Sequence record: MH494197.1
Strand: one strand, 5' to 3'
Length of the DNA: 64,000 bases
Source: Escherichia phage CMSTMSU
Shown: positions 7,028 through 42,440 of the stretch, in pieces
Layout: every line of letters begins with the position of its first letter
Position numbering within the stretch: the first letter of the stretch is position 1
The notes under the pieces: model-generated
Seen by the model: the letters and a program-made list of their open reading frames with translations, nothing else
What the model was told of the DNA's origin: nothing
Database searches by the model: none
Program-made: the position numbers and the translations under genes

Positions 7028-7226
7028 AGAAGAATATTAGTCCCATTACGCCTGAGTACTGAATATTTTTGTTATTGTTTTCTAAAGCTTCTAGAGTAAT
7101 ACGTATACAATTATTAAAGCAATCTCTGGCGTGTGGTGTATCTAAACGTAAAGGTGATACACTCCTTAGAAACATTTGTTCTGATGCACTGAGGTGTTTG
7201 GTGTAGAATTCTTTCTGTTCGTTCAT
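7020..7226 (-). CDS. small-ORF array member (68 aa)
   Basis: Track ORF MNEQKEFYTKHLSASEQMFLR...; AAGAGG 6 nt upstream of ATG; paralogue of 6229..6438. Confidence 0.55.
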   Translation of the reverse strand: MNEQKEFYTKHLSASEQMFLRSVSPLRLDTPHARDCFNNCIRITLEALENNNKNIQYSGVMGLIFFYE

Positions 7227-7236
7227 ATTGGCCTCT

Positions 7237-7425
7237 TTAGTACACGAAAGCTAGGTACAGTGTATGATACAGTACTCGATGATAGCTATCAAAATCTAGT
7301 ATACATGCTTTAGTGCACATAGTAAAGTACACTTTATCGTTTTGAGCATTGATACCGCGAGGTTTATCTAATAGATTAGTACTGAGGTACATTGGGAAAT
7401 ATTTTGTGTAGTATTCTTTATGCAT
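7237..7425 (-). CDS. small-ORF array member
   Basis: Track ORF 7237..7470 trimmed to internal Met giving family-type start MHKEYYTKYF. Confidence 0.45.
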   Translation of the reverse strand: MHKEYYTKYFPMYLSTNLLDKPRGINAQNDKVYFTMCTKACILDFDSYHRVLYHTLYLAFVY

Positions 7426-7807
7426 ATTAGTACCTGAATATAAGTAGGATAGTGTTATATAATTGGTCATAGCTACTACTATTTTCTATACTGCGTTCTA
7501 TGCAATTATTGAATCCCAGTACTGCCAAATCGTTATCCGGGGGACTTTATATCTGGCGTAGTGTTCAAATATACTGGGAGAAATTGTGTGTAGTATTCTT
7601 TGTGCATATTAGTACCTATATATTAGTAAAAGGATGTGATACAGTACTCGATTATAGTCTTCAATATATATCGAGGATTTAGTGCACTGAATGAAGTAGT
7701 CTTTTTCGTAGTTTTTTCTATACCCAATGGTTCTGTTGGTAGAAGGTGTTGGAGATACATTGGGAGTTTCTCTATGTAGTATTCTTTGTGGTTATTCATA
7801 TTATGTG

Positions 7808-7981
7808 TTATTTCGTGAAAACAAGGGTTAGTACTGCATAGTACAAGTCATACGTATCTTTAGGGTTAATAGCACCTTTAATACATTCTTTCATTACTTC
7901 ATTATAGATAATTTTAGTACTGAATGTATTGGATGTTACTATATCGGAATTAAGGTACGAGAGGTAGAATTCTTTATACAT
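7808..7981 (-). CDS. small-ORF array member
   Basis: Track ORF 7808..8044 trimmed to internal Met giving MYKEFYLSYL; longer form also possible. Confidence 0.4.
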   Translation of the reverse strand: MYKEFYLSYLNSDIVTSNTFSTKIIYNEVMKECIKGAINPKDTYDLYYAVLTLVFTK

Positions 7982-8080
7982 AGTTTGAAATATACGTAAT
8001 GAGGTGATGAAATTTCTTATCAGTACTGATAAGTTCCTGTACATGTTTTGTTAGTTTGTACGCGTTTTATAGAGTCCGGA

Positions 8081-8458
8081 TTATCGATTACAGTACTGTA
8101 CATGAATAGATCTTCTTCTGATAATTCTTTGCCGGTAATTCTTTGAGGAATTGCAGTACTGTATCAGTTTCGTTAGTACGTTGCTTTTGGAAGAAGTGCA
8201 TGTTATCGTGTATTTTTCTGAACCCATGCAGTACATATCTCCGATTTGGAATTGTGCAGTACTGATATCATGGGTGCTATTACAATTCCCGAAGAAGTAT
8301 ACATTCCCGAAAGATAGAATTATAGTGCACGGGATATTATCCATGTGTATATAGATAGATGCATTCTTTAGTGCTTTTGTGCTGGTATTAGTACTCAATA
8401 CTTTTAAATCAGTATTATAGATATTAATAAAAGCAAGAGCTATATTATTTTTCTTCAA
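8081..8458 (-). CDS. hypothetical protein inside the array (125 aa)
   Basis: Track ORF only; lacks the family motif and is low-complexity. Confidence 0.2.
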   Translation of the reverse strand: MKKNNIALAFINIYNTDLKVLSTNTSTKALKNASIYIHMDNIPCTIILSFGNVYFFGNCNSTHDISTAQFQIGDMYCMGSEKYTITCTSSKSNVLTKLIQYCNSSKNYRQRIIRRRSIHVQYCNR

Positions 8459-9207
8459 GTACGATTTGAGGTTCTTAGATACGAGAACATTTCTGGATTT
8501 TTCTTTTTATTTCGTTTCTTTAGTATATTCGGGTGATACGTATAAGATGATGTAACTGATTCTGCTTGAATACTGTTGAGGTATTTAAAGTGCTTAAGGT
8601 ATTGTTTGCTGTGTGCATTAAGTTTCATTTGGTTTCCTTTATACAGATGCGAGTGCGAGGATTTCCCTGAAGGGATTATCTTTTGTTAGTGCGTGATGAA
8701 TGCAGCTATTGAGATTAATATTTTTAGTACTGTTAGTTGCCGTTGTAGTACTTCACGAAGGTGTCGTACATGAAACGGTCTTTAATGCTTATGTGTTCTA
8801 TATAGTATTCTTGCATATTATTCCTTACATAGAGATGAGTTTCAGTACATCAATATACATATAACGTTCAGATGACTGTACACGGGTAGTGATAATCTCA
8901 ATCGATATATTTTAATTCCATGTGCAGATGATTGATGGTGCTGAATAAATGAGTTGTGCATACTTTGTTCTATGTGGTTTAGTTTATTGAAGTAGTACTC
9001 AAAAGTGTTCATGTCTACCTTAGATTGAGATTAGTTTAAGTACTTCTCTGTATGTGTACTTTTCGTTTTGTGCTTCTACTGTACATGATAGTAGGTATCG
9101 TTTTTTATCTCTTTTGTTCCCGACTGTGTAGTACCTTTGGAATTTATTATAGTTGTATCTATCTTTGTGCTGGAGTTTATAGATATAGAATTCTTGCATA
9201 GAGTACC

Positions 9208-9393
9208 TTAGATTGCTATCAGTTTCAGTACTTCAATATATGTGCGGTACTCTGCTTTAATTAAATTTGTACACACTGTAAGGGAATTTCTTTGTATAAG
9301 TTTATTGCCGCTTTTATACGCATTTCTCCACACATAGAGATGAGATCTTTCAGGCATAGATAGTTTATTTGTATAGTACTCAAATGTATTCAT
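9208..9393 (-). CDS. small-ORF array member (61 aa)
   Basis: Track ORF MNTFEYYTNKLSMPERSHL...; similar broken copy at about 8990. Confidence 0.45.
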   Translation of the reverse strand: MNTFEYYTNKLSMPERSHLYVWRNAYKSGNKLIQRNSLTVCTNLIKAEYRTYIEVLKLIAI

Positions 9394-9995
9394 ATATTAC
9401 CTCAAATAGAGATTAGTTTAAGTACTTCTCTGTATGTGTACTTTTCGTTTTGTGCATCTCTTGTGCTTGTATATAGGTATCCTCGACGATATTTGTTGCT
9501 CCCGTTCTTGTAGTTGAATTCGAACTTATTGTAGATGAATCTATCGCCGCTGTAATTTACTTAAGTACAATTCAATGCTCATAGTATTCTCTTTACATAT
9601 CAATAAGTTTCAGTACTGCTCTGTACGTGTACTTAGTTGTTAGTGCTTCTTTATAGCAATACAGAAGTAATGTTGTTTGTCTCTTATACTACCGCGTTTG
9701 TAGTACCATACATTGGAGTTGTGGGTGTACTTGTCCCTGTCGGATAGATTTTGGTAATAGTATAATATATGATTCATGGTAATGTAATTAGCCTTATTAT
9801 GTTAAAGTACTCGGTCCCCGTACACCTTGTAGAATATTATCAACTACATTTTCTTGGTGCAGGATTAATACATTCGGTGCGGTTCTTTTAAGGTTTTTAA
9901 AGTACTGTATTCTTGTTTAAGGATGAACTGTACATCTTTAGGGAGAATATCTAAGTAGTACTGGTGTATGTTCATAGTTTTCATATAGTACTCTT

Positions 9996-10181
9996 TTAGA
10001 ACTTAAAGATGAGGTTCATGATAGATAAGTACTTAGTTTCAGGAAATTGATGTTCTATTGCATAACGTGTCTCCAGTCTGAAGTCAAATTTATAAAAGGG
10101 ACTATTCATATCCATAGGTTCATTGGGAAATGAATCTCTGTATTGTTTGTGCAGCTTACTACAGTAGAATTCTTTATACAT
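9996..10181 (-). CDS. small-ORF array member (61 aa)
   Basis: Track ORF MYKEFYCSKLHKQYR... Confidence 0.45.
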   Translation of the reverse strand: MYKEFYCSKLHKQYRDSFPNEPMDMNSPFYKFDFRLETRYAIEHQFPETKYLSIMNLIFKF

Positions 10182-10182
10182 A

Positions 10183-10395
10183 TTAGTGCTCGATTAAAAG
10201 GGTTAGGATGTAATAGTATTGCATACTTTCTACCCCTTGTACAGCATTTCTTATTTTATTATTCCTGTACGAGTTCAAGAGTTTAGGACAATGTTTGAAG
10301 TTTATATAATTATTTTGTGTATACAGTAGGCTTTCTCGTAGACCTTTTGTTGGTAGTGCATCGATGTAGTACTGTTCAATGTTCATAGTGTTCAT
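10183..10395 (-). CDS. small-ORF array member, first unit (70 aa)
   Basis: Track ORF MNTMNIEQYYIDALPTKG...; abuts 9996..10181. Confidence 0.4.
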   Translation of the reverse strand: MNTMNIEQYYIDALPTKGLRESLLYTQNNYINFKHCPKLLNSYRNNKIRNAVQGVESMQYYYILTLLIEH

Positions 10396-10719
10396 AGAGC
10401 TACCAGTACTAAGATTTTTGATAATTGTTTGTTTCTATCCCGCAGATGTTGTTGTGTAAAATGCTCACTACAAGGGTATCAAGTGCATTGTTCAGCATAA
10501 GGTTACATCCAGTACTGTTATATTTTTTAGCTCAATTAGCCACGAACAATCCGCGAGAAATTTCCCGTACTCTAGTTCATTTAGCGTATTAATGTAGTAC
10601 TTAAGTGCATTTGTCATGTACAGTTCTCCTTATATTCCTTCTATAGTACATCAGTACTGAAAGGTTGTCAAGGGTTTTCTTTTTGGGGTAAATATGATAT
10701 AATGAATAAAGGAGGAAAT

Positions 10720-11866
10720 ATGTTACCTTTTGTAAGAATGGTTAAGTACGGGAATATTGCACCAGTACCGAAAAAATAAAGAAAGTTATAGCAGGATATG
10801 ATAATTTATATGTACTATATGGTGATGGTTCGCTATATGGTTGTGGAATCAATAACTATCAACAGTTAAATATTGATGGAACTGCTACACAAAATAATTG
10901 GGTACTAATTACCAATGGTGTTAGTAATGCATGGGCTGGTGGATACAATATTTTATATTTGAAAGAAGATAAATTTATAATGCACGGAACTAATGTCTCA
11001 TTAGGTTTAGGAAATACTACAATTCCATTAGGTGGAGTAGATGTAACTTCTTCATTCCCAGATATCTCTAATATTAAAATGATATCCATTGGTTTTGATT
11101 CAATGCACTATGTTAGTGCTGATGGTACAACTGTATATGGAAGAGGTATGAACACAAATGGTTCTGTTGGTTCAGGTAGTACTTACTCACAGAGTACTTT
11201 CACTTCAGTACTGAATAATGGAACTAATCAGGTTATTGATATATTTGGTAACGTTAATAATACAGTGCTTCTAACATCGAATGGTGAGCTTCGAGCATGT
11301 GGGACAAGTGCTTATGGTTCTATAGGAAATGAAACTGGTAAGTGGACATCGTTTGGTTTAAAATTATCTGGCACTAAAATAATGGGTGGTAATGGGTATA
11401 GTACGCTTGCATATACAAATTCGGGAATGTACCACTCAGGGTGGCAGTTAAATGGGGAACTAGGAAATGGTTTAGATACTAACGTACAGGTATATCCATT
11501 TCAATTTAACTCTAAAACGATAGATAGCAAGATAGATAAAATTGCCAAATCATCATCTGGGTCATATGTTAACATGTACTCAACAACAGAAGGAAAGATA
11601 TATACGACAGGTTCGTTTGGTAAAACGGGTCAACTACTGCATTGAATTTGTTCACCAATACATTAACACTTATAAATTACAATCCAGATACCGCCTCGTT
11701 GTATACGTGCACAAACTTCAGTGTTGTGTATGATGGTAATGAAACTATTGCTGTAAGTGGTAGTCCTACATATGTACCGAGGGCGTTGCCGCTAATAGAT
11801 GGACTACAATTCCATTACCCAAGTAATACTATGCCAGTACTTGATGCTGGCTTTTCTTTTGATTAA
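10720..11866 (+). CDS. leader-tagged RCC1-like repeat protein F1 (frame breaks)
   Basis: AAGGAGG then ATG; N-terminus MLPFVRMVKYGN; stop after 19 codons at an A-run (10766-10772), one extra A restores a reading colinear with paralogue 24753..25907; body = track ORFs 10959..11645 and 11642..11866. Confidence 0.7.
11833..11860 (+). terminator. intrinsic terminator between F1 and F2
   Basis: Hairpin GCCAGTA-CTTGA-TGCTGGC followed by TTTTCTTTT; same element recurs after most array genes. Confidence 0.6.
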
Positions 11867-33856: not shown

Positions 33857-34626
33857 TTAAATTTTCTCAAGGAACATGTTTTCTGCCATTGACTCCCAAT
33901 CATATGGAAATTTATTATACAGACCAGCGATCAGTACTGGCATACGCAGAGAAGGTGAACGCAGCTTTTCTTCGTTGTTCAGCATCCAGTTTAAGATAGC
34001 TTTACAACCATTTTTATTAACCCCATTGTTCTCAAGAATATTAGTCTTGTTCATGATGTTCTCAATGTGAATCATAACTTCTTCGTTAGTGAACAGTTGA
34101 AGATCAACAAAGATACTACGAGTAATCAGTGCATCAATGTGTGGTGCTAAACTGCTTTTACCTTTAGCAATCTGTGACAGGTTTTGTTCGTCAGGAAGAT
34201 TACCTTCCCACGGAATTCAAACTGCTTAGGAATACCCTGCTGTTCCGTACTTCCCAGAAGTTGCATAAGATACAACCCGCTTCTCTGACGTGTCCAACAC
34301 GGCTTTAAGTAAATCAATATTGGTTTCATCACTGAAGATATCAACGTCATCAAGTAACAGTACTGATGCGGCATGACGTGAACGATACAGTGCTTCGTAC
34401 AGACCCATAGTGGTTACTTTACCGCTGATCTTTTGTAGTCGATTTCAAAGTTATCATCAGCTTTCTGCAAACGCTGGTCAACGTTGTAAGTTTTTCCAAC
34501 ACCACCTTTACCAGATACAATCAGGGAATTGATTGAATTAGCTTGGGTATCAAGTAAACATTCCAAAGCTGCCATCATGCTGTTGAAGTTCTTTTCGATT
34601 TGGATTGCTTTCTCTGTACGGGTCAT
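33857..34626 (-). CDS. P-loop NTPase (frame breaks)
   Basis: ATG at 34626 behind AGAGGA; Walker A SGKGGVGKT, Walker B-like VLLLDDVD, IFLTN; assembled from track ORFs 34414..34773, 34226..34408, 34147..34374, 33857..34075. Confidence 0.55.
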
Positions 34627-34654
34627 GTCTTTATCCTCTTGAGTTGATGAAATG

Positions 34655-34686
34655 ATTATAGCAAAAGGGCTGACTAGTGTCAACCC
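34655..34686 (-). promoter_or_regulatory. composite hairpin terminator with embedded promoter (TTGACA-17-TATAAT)
   Basis: Minus-strand GGGTTGACACTAGTCAGCCC hairpin then TTTTGCTATAAT; -35 lies in the stem. Confidence 0.55.
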
Positions 34687-34813
34687 TTTTGTTTTAGATA
34701 ATTTGTACTTCATCATAGATCTTGCACGATTTGCTTTCCGGGTTATTTGTAAATTTATACCTAGTGGAATCAAGAATTATTTTAAATCTTCTTTCACATA
34801 GTACTCATATAAT

Positions 34814-35011
34814 TTAATTACTTTTGTATATTGAATCACATTGTCTACGCAATAGTTTATAGTATGCTTTACCACGAGGAAATAGTTTACGTGTATGTTC
34901 TCCTTTTCCCCACGGTCCTAAATATGTTTTACGCGTGTCGTGATTATTAAAGTTATTTGATACAGTTGATTTTGTACCAATCGGATCTTCCTTACTAAAA
35001 TAGATAGACAT
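34814..35011 (-). CDS. hypothetical protein (65 aa)
   Basis: Track ORF on early strand. Confidence 0.3.
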   Translation of the reverse strand: MSIYFSKEDPIGTKSTVSNNFNNHDTRKTYLGPWGKGEHTRKLFPRGKAYYKLLRRQCDSIYKSN

Positions 35012-35332
35012 TATAAAGTTCTCTCTTCACTAAGTTTTTGTATTAAACTATTTCGGTAGCTCCATACTTAAAGTAAATTTCCTTAATCATTTCAAGATTA
35101 TGGATGCTTGTAGTTTCAGACCAACCATCCTCCATCAATTCACGTTCAATAATACCTTTCGTATTATGGATTTTAATATTTTCAGTTTGAAACAGTTTCT
35201 TACATTCAGTTTCGGCAGCAATACAATCAACTGGATTTTCAAATTTAAAAGAGCTAATACGTTTTATATCATAATAACATTTTAAGTTTTGTTCATATTC
35301 ACGACGACCGAGGATTGTTTCAATTCCATATT

Positions 35333-36611
35333 TTAGCCCAATATATTCACCTGCATTACATATACCACTAATATATGCAATTTTTGATTGCGATGTGCCT
35401 TACGAGGATTGCCACATCCACGCAAATGTATAGATGGTGTTTGCCAGAATTCATCACCACTTTCTGGATCAATAATACACACATTAGTACGGGCATCAAT
35501 ATACTCTACTTTACTGTAATCATATTGTTCATCGTGAATTTCGTTAGCCCTGTTGATAAATTCATCAATTGACATTTTATTTTTCAGGCCAGTTGATATA
35601 TTAGCACGATCATTATTACCACATCCCATCAAATGTGATGATGGTGTTTGCCAGAATTCACCATATACTGGATCTATAATACATACCTTAGTACTGTTGT
35701 TTACGTATACGACCTTACTATAATCATACAGATTATCATGCACCAAATTGGCCTTCTCGATAAATTCATCAAGTGTTAAGCGTTTACTCTGTGCCGTTTT
35801 TCAAAACCACGGATTGGGTTTCCATGACCTTTCCAATGGTAGATTGGTTCTTGCCAGAATTCACCATATACTGGATCTACAATACATACCTTAGTCCATG
35901 CACCAGTATACTCCACTTTACTGTAGTCATATAAATGACCATGTACTGCACGAGAACGTTCAATAAAACTTCGTTGGTGAATGTTTTATTTACTGAAGTT
36001 CCTATACGCCCACGTTCCATGTTACCATGCTTGGATTTTAAATGGTCATATGGCGTTTGCCAGAATTCACCATACACTGGATCAATAATGCATACTGGAG
36101 TTTTACTATTAACATATTCTACGTTTGAATAATCGAACGTATTTCCAAAACGTTCGATAGCTTCAGCTATAAATGTTTCAGTTGTTTTTGATTTAAGTTT
36201 TTACCATTTTCAATGGCACGTTGTGGGCTACCTGCACCTTTTAAATGGGAGCTGGGTTCTTGCCAGAATTCACCATACACTGGATCAATAATACATACCT
36301 TAGTGCTATTATTTTTATAAACAACTTTACTATAATCATAGAGGTTGTTATGAACTTTTTCTGCTCGTTCTATAAACGTTTGGGTGGTTAATTTGCCAAC
36401 ACCTGAACGATATGGATTCCTGACCGCGAATGTGATGTGACGGAGTTTGCCAGAATTCACCATACACCGGATCAATAATGCATACTGGTTCTTTAGCTTT
36501 TACATACACTGCTTTTTCGTAATTATAGAGATCACCATGTACATTTCGTGCAGCAATTAAAAAGTTTCTTGGTCGGTAACACGCATTTTCTTTATCCCTA
36601 GTACGTTTCAT
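35333..36611 (-). CDS. tandem-repeat protein(s), ~45-aa module repeated at least six times (frame breaks)
   Basis: Track ORFs 35333..35746, 35877..36077, 36167..36475, 36348..36611 and shifted frames repeat the module (F)IxRAxxVHxNLYDYSKVxYxxxxTKVCIIDPVYGEFWQTPxxHLxGxG. Confidence 0.5.
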
Positions 36612-36875
36612 TTCGATAGAGCTATAATAGCAAAGGGCTGACCGAAGTCAACTCTTTGATATGATAATATAATCATTCCATAAATTATATATATTGTTTT
36701 CAACACAATCATCATCGCTTAATTCTATAATTGACGAGATAAGTTCTGATAAGGTTTGTGTGTTCAAAACCGTATCACGATGTCTCAACCACCATTTCAT
36801 GGTGAGTGTTCGGATTTTGTACGGATTGTTTGAAAACTTGTATCTAGAAGTGTCAAGTATCATTTTAATCTCTAT

Positions 36876-37310
36876 TTACTTAATCATCTCGGTATAGTAC
36901 TCAGGTAACTCAACATCAGTAAATTTATACCACTTAGGCTTCATTTGGAGCTTCTCAATCAAGCGTTCACGAGACATTTTAATCTCTGAATCAGATGGTA
37001 CATAGTCCGCAAAACTCCGCAGGAAGCCGCTAATGTCGTTTAATTCAATGTTTTGAATCTTCATACCACGACGCAAACATTCGTTAACAATTTCAATATG
37101 ACGCTTCTGTAAGTACAATAACTTGTTGTAGAAGAATGTTACATGACCTGAACCTAACAGGTAAGTACTGTTAATTTTGAAATCACGTACACGCTTACGT
37201 GCTTGAACATGTTTTTGTACAGCACCAAATACACGTGGAAGTTCACGATATTCAGCCATCAGATGTTGGTCAGCAAGTTCTTTAACGTGTACTAAGTTAA
37301 TGCGGGTCAT
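36876..37310 (-). CDS. denV: pyrimidine dimer DNA glycosylase (T4 endonuclease V-like)
   Basis: Track ORF 36876..37367 trimmed to Met behind GAGAGGA; [35 protein letters not shown]...VRDFKI...GHVTFFY closely parallels T4 DenV as recalled from memory. Confidence 0.85.
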
Positions 37311-37314
37311 GTAT

Positions 37315-37533
37315 TCATCCTCTCGTCTTGATGAAATAATTATAGCAAAAGGGCTGACCGAAGTCAACCCGTTTTGAAAGGATTTTTAATGGTTTTCGTA
37401 CTGTATGTATTTTGCTTTGTAGTTCTTCTTCCCACAAAACATTTATATTATAAACTAAATCATTGTAGTCACTGTTCACAAAGATAAAATCATACTTCTC
37501 ATTAAAAGTATGAGAAATCAATTTCATTTTCAT
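37315..37533 (-). CDS. hypothetical protein (72 aa)
   Basis: Track ORF; 3' codons overlap the hairpin element, true stop uncertain. Confidence 0.3.
37339..37370 (-). promoter_or_regulatory. composite hairpin terminator with embedded promoter (TTGACT-17-TATAAT), promoter of denV
   Basis: Minus-strand GGGTTGACTTCGGTCAGCCCTTTTGCTATAAT. Confidence 0.65.
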
Positions 37534-41520: not shown

Positions 41521-41763
41521 TTACCCGTACTTGAAGCTAAAGGTACTACCTTCTTCTACCAGAGGGATTGGTGTACTACGTTCATGTTCCAGTACAAGTT
41601 TACTGCCGATGATGTTGTACGAAGTTATCTTGCATTTTAAAACACCCATCTCTTGTGCAGTTGGGTAATTCTTCTCAAACAAATCAGATACTTCATTTGC
41701 ATAACAAACTGAACTAATCATAAGAAGTAATGAACTGATAGAACGGAAAATAACTTTTAACAT
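41521..41763 (-). CDS. secreted hypothetical protein (80 aa)
   Basis: Track ORF; signal-peptide-like MLKVIFRSISSLLLMISSVCYA; GGAGG upstream. Confidence 0.55.
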   Translation of the reverse strand: MLKVIFRSISSLLLMISSVCYANEVSDLFEKNYPTAQEMGVLKCKITSYNIIGSKLVLEHERSTPIPLVEEGSTFSFKYG

Positions 41764-41789
41764 GTTTGCCTCCAGTAGTTGATGAAATG

Positions 41790-41821
41790 ATTATAGCAAA
41801 AGGGCCGACCGAAGTCAACCC
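41790..41821 (-). promoter_or_regulatory. composite hairpin terminator with embedded promoter (TTGACT-17-TATAAT)
   Basis: Minus-strand GGGTTGACTTCGGTCGGCCCTTTTGCTATAAT upstream of 41521..41763. Confidence 0.6.
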
Positions 41822-41842
41822 TTTTCTTTTATATTTTACATG

Positions 41843-42440
41843 TCATGTCTGGTTTTGGCTTTTCATTCTTTGGCTTTTCAAATGGATTTGGCTTAGGGAC
41901 TTTTTATCTTTGTCATCTTTAGCTTTCTTTTTGTTTTCTTTTTTATCCGATTTGTCAGCTTTGTCTTTCTTATCTTTTGAATCTTTGTCAGCTTTAGATT
42001 GTGGTTCCTCACATACAGCAGCTTTTGGCTCCGGCATATCACATGAGTTATCCACAGGTTTAATGAACTCTTTACAGTTGTAGAAGTATAAACTTTCATT
42101 GGTAGTAAGATTGTGGAATCTAAAGGTATTTTCACCATTAGTATATACTTTCTTAGTACTCTCAATATCATTACACATTGCAACCGTGTCACCGGAATTC
42201 ACGCTCGATACCTATTACATCCGACTTACGTTCAGATAGTATTCCAGACGTATATCGATCTTTGTTATCAAATGCATTGAACCCTATAGTTTTATTATTG
42301 TCATGTACCAATCCTCTAGTGTAAGACTTCGTATAGAACTCACCGTTTCTAAACTCCTGTCTAGCAATGGAGCACTGGTATTCAGTACTATAAACTATAT
42401 CAGTAAACAATACAAGTGAAAATAAAACATATTTAAACAT
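41843..42440 (-). CDS. secreted protein with Lys/Asp-rich tail (frame break)
   Basis: Track ORF 42189..42440 (signal-peptide-like MFKYVLFSLVLFTDIVYS) continues by one frame break into 41843..42202 (..KDSKDKKDKADKSDKKENKKKAKDDKDKK). Confidence 0.4.

What the first reader, a model, noticed from the sequence alone, without database searches (positions are those of the whole stretch)
35333..36611. Tandem ~45-aa module that looks like a degenerate zinc ribbon
At least six copies of the module (F)IxRAxxVHxNLYDYSKVxYxxxxTKVCIIDPVYGEFWQTPxxHLxGxG follow one another. The pattern resembles a small zinc-ribbon module I associate with phage nuclease-associated domains, but most Cys positions are replaced (CIIDP, GxGNP). 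Repeating it six times is unusual.
Basis: partly seen in the sequence, partly recalled or inferred. Interest (0 to 1): 0.55.

Follow-up and report, generated by a model that had tools for sequence, protein, structure and literature searches.

The report
Phage homing nuclease with cysteine-less finger repeats
The six repeats are real and form the predicted DNA-binding arm of a selfish phage nuclease gene of a well-known kind; every repeat has lost its zinc-binding residues in one fixed pattern, and the broken reading frames in this window are sequencing errors.

Summary
The six tandem modules exist on the minus strand (about 36566-35381), spaced 63-69 aa apart. They belong to one gene, window 36586..35043. 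In this window the gene is split over three frames by six homopolymer deletions (7 bases). Two independent assemblies (phage WPEC3 and an Illumina metagenome contig) carry an intact 516-aa ORF. Across the window, indels are almost all "window lacks a base", so the frameshifts are sequencing artefacts.

The module is a cysteine-less version of the DUF723/DUF4379 zinc-finger module. One repeat is 71% identical to a canonical repeat (E 1e-26). The four ligands C,H,C,C became D,Y,N/S,R, and a nearby K became L. The same switch recurs in about 110 repeats from other proteins.

The gene lies in a 2.2-kb insert that the close relative EC.P1 lacks.

Repeated zinc-finger arrays fused to T5orf172 are already described (Barth 2023), and 4-11 repeats is normal for the family. 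It is therefore an ordinary homing-endonuclease-type gene. Only the zinc-less variant seems undescribed.

The parts
35043..36586 (-). Whole endonuclease gene. It is 516 aa when intact; in the window it is 1544 nt instead of 1551 and is split over three frames.
   Evidence: Alignment to the WPEC3 CDS L001:3844-5394. An intact identical-length ORF is present on metagenome contig L006.
36386..36566 (-). Module 1 (ligand columns D,Y,N,R).
36194..36385 (-). Module 2 (D,Y,S,R).
35985..36185 (-). Module 3 (D,Y,N,R; the most divergent module, with one extra residue before the third ligand column).
35797..35967 (-). Module 4 (D,Y,N,R).
35576..35779 (-). Module 5 (D,Y,N,R). This module was used for the structure model.
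35381..35575 (-). Module 6 (D,S,N,K; one-residue insertion in the hairpin).
35046..35381 (-). C-terminal T5orf172/MUG113-like (GIY-YIG superfamily) nuclease domain. The family-invariant residues Y, K-Y-G, R, E and E-T are all present.
36624..36652 (-). Hairpin (GTTGAC-TTCG-GTCAGC) containing a -35-like TTGACT, followed by a -10-like TATTAT, just upstream of the gene. The same cassette precedes denV and another gene.
   Evidence: consensus matches only
35386..36564 (.). Span holding the six frameshifting homopolymer deletions inside the CDS, at about 36564 (T), 36421 (GG), 36203 (A), 35969 (T), 35802 (A) and 35386 (A).
34720..36897 (.). A 2.2-kb segment present in the window and WPEC3 but replaced by about 72 bp in phage EC.P1. 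It is a variable slot between the ATPase gene and denV.
34814..35011 (-). 65-aa ORF of unknown function inside the insert, downstream of the endonuclease gene. It is also present in WPEC3 and on L006.
36648..36863 (-). 71-aa ORF of unknown function inside the insert, between denV and the endonuclease gene.

Best explanation
This is a free-standing homing-endonuclease-type gene of a jumbo E. coli phage (Asteriusvirus, 121Q/PBECO4 group). The protein has an N-terminal string of six independently folding DUF723-like modules. By inference, these modules together read a long DNA target. The C-terminal T5orf172/MUG113-like GIY-YIG domain is inferred to cut that DNA. All six modules descend from C-H-C-C zinc fingers but have swapped the four ligands for Asp, Tyr, Asn/Ser and Arg, and a nearby Lys for Leu. 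This most likely replaces the metal site with a salt bridge and packing network, so the fold no longer needs zinc. The gene sits with its own promoter-like element in a variable 2.2-kb slot between an ATPase gene and denV. The frameshifts seen in the window are homopolymer under-calls of the sequencing, not biology. Shown here: the six repeats, homology to zinc modules, the fixed replacement pattern, the nuclease-fold assignment, presence/absence at the locus, and the artefactual nature of the frameshifts. Inferred: DNA binding, zinc independence, cleavage and homing.
For: Repeats and gene limits.

Frameshifts are artefacts:
- All six in-gene indel events are homopolymer deletions.
- 38 of 38 indels over 9.3 kb, and 285 versus 22 over 33.5 kb, are 'window lacks'.
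- The neighbouring conserved ATPase gene is broken in the same way.
- Intact copies exist in WPEC3 and on an Illumina contig.

Module homology:
- 7931 homologues were found, and the best-scoring ones listed nearly all carry PF05265/PF14311.
- A gap-free alignment with C-H-C-C repeats was obtained.
- Repeat 5 versus a canonical repeat is 71% identical, E 1e-26.
- Only 5 columns differ systematically between the two classes.
- Of 902 repeats, 776 are CHCC and about 110 are D-Y/F-N/H/S-R.
- Some proteins mix one CHCC repeat with zinc-less repeats.
- The module model has pLDDT 92.6, with the replaced residues at the hairpin turn and the start of a helix.

Nuclease domain:
- 242 representative relatives carry it, always at the C-terminus.
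- 30 of 60 family members hit MUG113 and 22 of 60 hit T5orf172.
- Invariant residues are Y, K-x-G, R, E and E-T.
- PHROGs matches: 'endonuclease' 2.7e-63 and 'HNH endonuclease' 3e-42.

Mobility:
- EC.P1 lacks the 2.2-kb segment.
- Turkey3, WPEC5 and Ecwhy_1 carry other cargo in the slot, including other alleles.
- tblastn finds relatives in 593 phage records, and only WPEC3 has this allele.

Literature:
- T5orf172 homing endonucleases with repeated CapR/DUF723/DUF4379 fingers are described (PMC10448857).
- CapR binds DNA through its finger (PMC8096241).
Confidence: 0.78

Rival explanations
1. The gene in this window is a true pseudogene: a decaying homing-endonuclease gene inactivated by real frameshifts.
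For: Homing-endonuclease genes often decay by frameshifts (PMC10448857). WPEC5 carries a related allele annotated as two split ORFs. The window copy has six frameshifting indels.
Against: The same one-sided homopolymer deletions occur at about 1 per 190-250 bp throughout the window, including in conserved genes. There are only 2 substitutions against 10 deleted bases in about 2 kb. That ratio is implausible for real decay.
Confidence: 0.06
2. The protein is a domesticated derivative rather than a homing enzyme. It could be a DNA-binding regulator, or a nuclease aimed at a competitor such as a satellite or co-infecting phage, as CapR and Odn are in the ICP1/PLE system.
For: Documented precedents exist for both kinds of co-option from this family. 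The gene has its own early-type promoter cassette like ordinary neighbours.
Against: The locus shows presence/absence and allele replacement typical of selfish nuclease genes. The nuclease invariants are retained, which argues against a pure regulator.
Confidence: 0.12
3. The zinc-less modules are structurally degenerate and no longer bind DNA. On this reading they are linkers or protein-interaction units, or they bind RNA as DUF4379 proteins in trypanosome mitoribosome assembly complexes do.
For: Cys-to-Ser CapR loses DNA binding. A DUF4379 protein from a mitoribosome assembly intermediate appears among the weak fold matches.
Against: The replacement tetrad is itself conserved (D 99%, Y 82%, R 94% of about 114 repeats) and the rest of the module is unchanged. 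That pattern indicates selection for a folded module, not decay. The architecture with a nuclease domain matches DNA-targeting relatives.
Confidence: 0.08

Closest known systems
T5orf172-family homing endonucleases with repeated CapR/DUF723/DUF4379 zinc-finger arrays (Barth et al. 2023, PMC10448857)
   Same: The architecture is the same: a 'beads on a string' array of small finger modules, then a C-terminal T5orf172/MUG113-type GIY-YIG domain. The phage lifestyle and variable presence among close relatives are also shared. The same nuclease-domain family is found fused to CapR, DUF4379 and DUF723 modules.
   Different: All six modules lack the zinc ligands. The nuclease domain is a divergent subgroup (motif ALKYGIE...DGxTETT) that itself falls below the Pfam thresholds.
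DUF723 (PF05265) / DUF4379 (PF14311, 'probable treble clef zinc finger') modules
   Same: The gene's modules are 45-71% identical to canonical repeats with no gaps. They share the flanking motif FIxKAxxVHGxxYDYSKVxY and the core GEFWQxPxxHL.
   Different: C33D, H36Y, C52N/S/H, C55R and K14L. There was no hit to either model in the local Pfam scan.
CapR of Vibrio cholerae PLE satellites (Netter et al. 2021, PMC8096241)
   Same: It is a related finger domain derived from the DNA-binding arm of T5orf172 endonucleases, and it is shown experimentally to bind DNA.
   Different: CapR has a CxxC...CxC site that is required for binding, and it has no nuclease domain.
U-box versus RING finger (Aravind and Koonin 2000; from my own knowledge, not checked here)
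   Same: It is a precedent for a zinc-binding fold that lost its metal ligands and is held together by salt bridges and hydrogen bonds instead.
   Different: It is an unrelated fold and function, offered as an analogy only.
I-TevI and T4 Seg GIY-YIG homing endonucleases
   Different: In I-TevI the nuclease is N-terminal and the arm is a zinc finger, a helix and a helix-turn-helix. Here the nuclease is C-terminal and the arm is six copies of one module.

Membership tests
DUF723 / DUF4379 zinc-finger module | Significant sequence similarity to family members | tested here: met
   Pairwise E 1e-26 at 71% identity to a CHCC repeat. Nearly all of the top homologues listed carry PF05265 and/or PF14311. 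Canonical relatives pass the gathering scores.
DUF723 / DUF4379 zinc-finger module | Score above the Pfam gathering threshold | tested here: inconclusive
   The local Pfam scan (PF05265.19, PF14311.12) gives no hit at E<=10 for the 516-aa protein or its fragments. A precomputed table using a newer model version lists PF05265 for the 98%-identical P0001.
DUF723 / DUF4379 zinc-finger module | Four zinc ligands (C-H-C-C) | tested here: not met
   All six modules have D, Y/S, N/S and R/K at the ligand columns.
DUF723 / DUF4379 zinc-finger module | Treble-clef-like fold (ligand knuckle on a beta-hairpin plus the start of a helix) | tested here: inconclusive
   The model (pLDDT 92.6) has a helix, a hairpin and a helix, with the replaced residues at the hairpin turn and the helix N-terminus. 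Fold searches were not significant, and no solved relative was found by sequence.
T5orf172 / MUG113 (GIY-YIG superfamily) nuclease domain | Match to the Pfam models | tested here: inconclusive
   The query gives no hit. Of 60 aligned family members, 30 hit MUG113 (best 1.6e-5) and 22 hit T5orf172 (best 9e-5). The Turkey3 homologue hits MUG113 at 0.016.
T5orf172 / MUG113 (GIY-YIG superfamily) nuclease domain | GIY-YIG fold | tested here: met
T5orf172 / MUG113 (GIY-YIG superfamily) nuclease domain | Conserved Tyr, (Y/F)-G, Arg and Glu catalytic-type residues | tested here: met
   Invariant Y7, K21, G23, R31, E61, E93 and T94 in 60 sequences, all present in the window copy. Mapping them to catalytic roles is inferred.
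T5orf172 / MUG113 (GIY-YIG superfamily) nuclease domain | Nuclease activity | not testable with these tools
   Requires purified protein.
Free-standing homing endonuclease gene | Presence/absence at the same locus among close relatives | tested here: met
   EC.P1 joins the ATPase gene and denV directly. The window and WPEC3 have a 2.2-kb insert there. Other relatives carry different cargo or alleles.
Free-standing homing endonuclease gene | Cleavage of the gene-less allele and gene conversion | not testable with these tools
   Needs cleavage mapping and mixed-infection crosses.
   No NUMOD hit for this protein. There is only a chance-level NUMOD3 hit (E 0.065) in homologue P0002.

The most novel reading that the evidence does not exclude
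The D-Y-N/H/S-R (plus K-to-L) modules are a natural, metal-independent form of a treble-clef DNA-binding finger, in which a salt bridge and aromatic packing replace the zinc site. They still read DNA as modular units. That would give a U-box-like example of zinc loss in a DNA-binding finger, and a zinc-free repeat scaffold whose target code could be worked out from the many natural arrays.
Probability: 0.45. Interest if true: 0.5.

Novelty: new variant of a known kind. Interest (0 to 1): 0.3.

Why it matters
The practical value is corrective. The broken frames are a sequencing artefact, the repeat array is normal for its family, and the gene is a selfish nuclease already annotated as 'endonuclease' in a near-identical phage. 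The one point worth a follow-up is the zinc-less switch. Five columns change together (K14L, C33D, H36Y, C52N/H/S, C55R) while the rest of the module stays the same, and some proteins carry both forms side by side. The related CapR finger loses DNA binding when its cysteines are mutated. These natural variants therefore offer a direct test of how a small finger can become metal-independent. They also explain why current Pfam models miss this subgroup.

Tried and rejected
- Tandem Repeats Finder on the DNA found nothing relevant, because the repeats are too diverged.
- Pfam scans of the window fragments and of the intact protein gave only chance hits (Colicin_D, PNP_phzG_C and similar). NCBIfam gave nothing.
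- Sequence searches of the PDB found no relative, using the whole protein and profiles of both domains.
- A regular-expression count of ligand residues was out of register. It was replaced by an HMM alignment.
- dN/dS between the two intact copies (0.45) rests on 14 differences and says little.
- Programmed frameshifting, or separate small genes, was considered to explain the three frames. It was rejected because every shift is a homopolymer deletion shared with no other copy, and the same bias is seen across the whole window.
- An exact search for the upstream hairpin motif found only one copy at up to 3 mismatches. The related copies are more diverged.

Full report
**Observation**

Each repeat finds all six places by tblastn, with E values from 1e-13 to 1e-45, and finds nothing else in the 64-kb window. 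The conserved core is about 56 aa and the period is 63-69 aa. The copies are not in one ORF. The ORF list and a three-frame translation show them spread over three frames.

**The frameshifts are artefacts**

The window is 99.4% identical here to Escherichia phage WPEC3 (PV611058), a 384-kb Asteriusvirus-type jumbo phage. In WPEC3 the region is a single 516-aa CDS annotated 'endonuclease'.

- The window differs from WPEC3 by 2 substitutions and 10 missing bases in about 2 kb. Every missing base lies in a homopolymer run (A5 for A6, T5 for T6, GG for GGGG). Six such events, totalling 7 bases, lie inside the CDS.
- Over 9.3 kb, all 38 indels are 'window lacks a base'.
- Over 33.5 kb the count is 285 'lacks' against 22 'extra'.
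- The conserved ATPase gene next door is broken in the same way.
- A second intact 516-aa copy (98% identical) lies on a 354-kb short-read metagenome contig with the same neighbours.

The window therefore comes from an assembly with homopolymer under-calling. The true gene is window 36586..35043 on the minus strand.

The modules are 59-70% identical at DNA level and share at most 33 exact bases. TRF sees no tandem DNA repeat.

**What the module is**

A search of 5.8 billion proteins returned 7931 homologues. Nearly all of the 120 best-scoring ones listed carry precomputed PF05265 (DUF723), usually with PF14311 (DUF4379).

The canonical module reads FIxKAxxVHGDKYDYSKVxYxNxxTKVxIICPEHGEFxQxPxxHLxGxGCPxC. 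Aligned without gaps to the six repeats, its four ligand columns C, H, C, C correspond to D, Y, N/S, R in this gene.

An HMM alignment of 902 repeats from 121 proteins gave the following:

- 776 repeats are CHCC and about 110 are D-Y/F-N/H/S-R.
- Proteins have 4-11 repeats, most often 6-8.
- Five proteins carry one CHCC repeat among zinc-less ones.

Only five columns differ systematically between the two classes: K14L, C33D, H36Y, C52 to N/H/S, and C55R. Repeat 5 is 71% identical to a CHCC repeat of another protein, E 1e-26.

Canonical relatives pass the Pfam thresholds for DUF4379 ('probable treble clef zinc finger') and DUF723. The zinc-less proteins do not.

An AlphaFold model of repeat 5, built with a 59-sequence alignment, has pLDDT 92.6. 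It shows a helix, a beta-hairpin with D and Y at the turn, and a helix with N and R at its start. This layout fits a treble-clef site, but the alignment included zinc-bearing repeats. Fold searches were not significant, and no solved relative exists by sequence.

**The rest of the protein**

- They have 242 representative relatives among 1.84 billion proteins, always at a C-terminus.
- Invariant residues are Y7, K21, G23, R31, E61, G90, E93 and T94.
- Of 60 aligned members, 30 hit MUG113 and 22 hit T5orf172, although the query itself does not.
- The model (pLDDT 97.5) has a beta-beta-alpha-beta-alpha order.
- PHROGs places the protein in 'endonuclease' families.
- The same nuclease domain is found fused to CapR, DUF4379, DUF723 or zinc-less modules.

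**Genomic setting**

In phage EC.P1 the ATPase gene and denV are adjacent. In the window and in WPEC3, a 2.2-kb segment (34720-36897) lies between them, carrying the endonuclease gene and two small ORFs. Ecwhy_1, WPEC5 and Turkey3 have other cargo in this slot. WPEC5 carries a split related allele and Turkey3 a five-repeat zinc-less allele.

tblastn finds relatives in 593 phage records, but only WPEC3 has this allele.

A hairpin carrying a -35-like TTGACT followed by a -10-like box precedes the gene. A similar cassette precedes denV and another gene. These are consensus matches only.

**Comparison with what is known**

Barth et al. 2023 (PMC10448857) describe T5orf172 homing endonucleases whose DNA-binding arms are repeated CapR/DUF723/DUF4379 zinc fingers. 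They describe the arms as 'beads on a string' that are shuffled by recombination, and note that the genes are variably present and often frameshifted. Netter et al. 2021 (PMC8096241) showed that the related CapR finger binds DNA and that changing its four cysteines to serine abolishes binding.

The architecture, the repeat number and the lifestyle here are therefore ordinary. Neither paper mentions cysteine-less modules. The local Pfam models also miss them.

**Mechanism**

Shown: a six-module arm homologous to zinc fingers, a GIY-YIG-type domain with its conserved residues, and an insertion-polymorphic locus.

Inferred: the arm binds a long DNA site, the nuclease cuts gene-less genomes near the ATPase-denV junction, and repair copies the gene in. 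Also inferred: Asp33 and Arg55 pair where zinc used to sit, with Tyr36 and Leu14 packing around them, so the modules fold without metal.

Rivals considered are a real pseudogene, a domesticated regulator or anti-competitor nuclease, and degenerate non-binding modules. All are less likely, for the reasons given under each.

**Verdict**

The claim of unusual repetition is wrong, and the frame breaks are artefacts. The gene is a member of a known kind of selfish nuclease. The coordinated zinc-less switch is a modest, apparently undescribed variant.

Noticed in passing
whole window (measured on 1376-49506): The window has a systematic one-sided indel bias against phage WPEC3: 285 places where the window lacks bases against 22 where it has extra, mostly in homopolymers. 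Many ORFs in this window are therefore likely to be falsely broken. Any 'pseudogene' or 'frameshift' finding from this window should be checked against that.
   Followed up: yes
window 34147-34773 (-): The conserved ATPase gene (257 aa in WPEC3 and L006; Walker A motif GKGGVGKT) is split into three ORFs in the window. This is the same artefact.
   Followed up: partly
window 37375/37641 junction; L001 6178-6591: WPEC3 carries a 414-nt HNH endonuclease gene just beyond denV that the window lacks. This is a second presence/absence polymorphism of a selfish nuclease gene within 1 kb of the first.
   Followed up: partly
window 36624-36652, 37339-37370, about 41760-41860, 34655-34683 (all -): A recurring intergenic cassette: a GGGTTGAC-TTCG-GTCAGCCC hairpin whose stem contains a -35 TTGAC, followed by TG-TATAAT. 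It looks like a combined terminator and early promoter, and could serve as a recombination point for swapping cargo between genes.
   Followed up: partly
window about 11000-31300 (+), from WPEC3 annotation L007 11312-31581: A run of about 17 tandem paralogous genes annotated 'regulator of chromosome condensation' (RCC1/ATS1-like), each about 1.1 kb.
   Followed up: no
window about 7224-10755 (-), L007 7025-11209: A long series of about 20 adjacent 60-aa genes of very similar length (174-228 nt), probably a paralogous small-gene array.
   Followed up: no
L005 5910-7293 (phage WPEC5): In WPEC5 a related nuclease allele at the same slot is annotated as two overlapping ORFs ('DUF4379 domain-containing protein' plus 'endonuclease'). 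This is either a real frameshifted allele or another sequencing error.
   Followed up: no
proteins P0002, P0009, P0010, P0011, P0043: These homologues carry exactly one canonical C-H-C-C repeat embedded among 5-8 zinc-less repeats. Its nearest relatives are zinc-type repeats of other proteins, which suggests module exchange or retention of one ancestral finger.
   Followed up: partly
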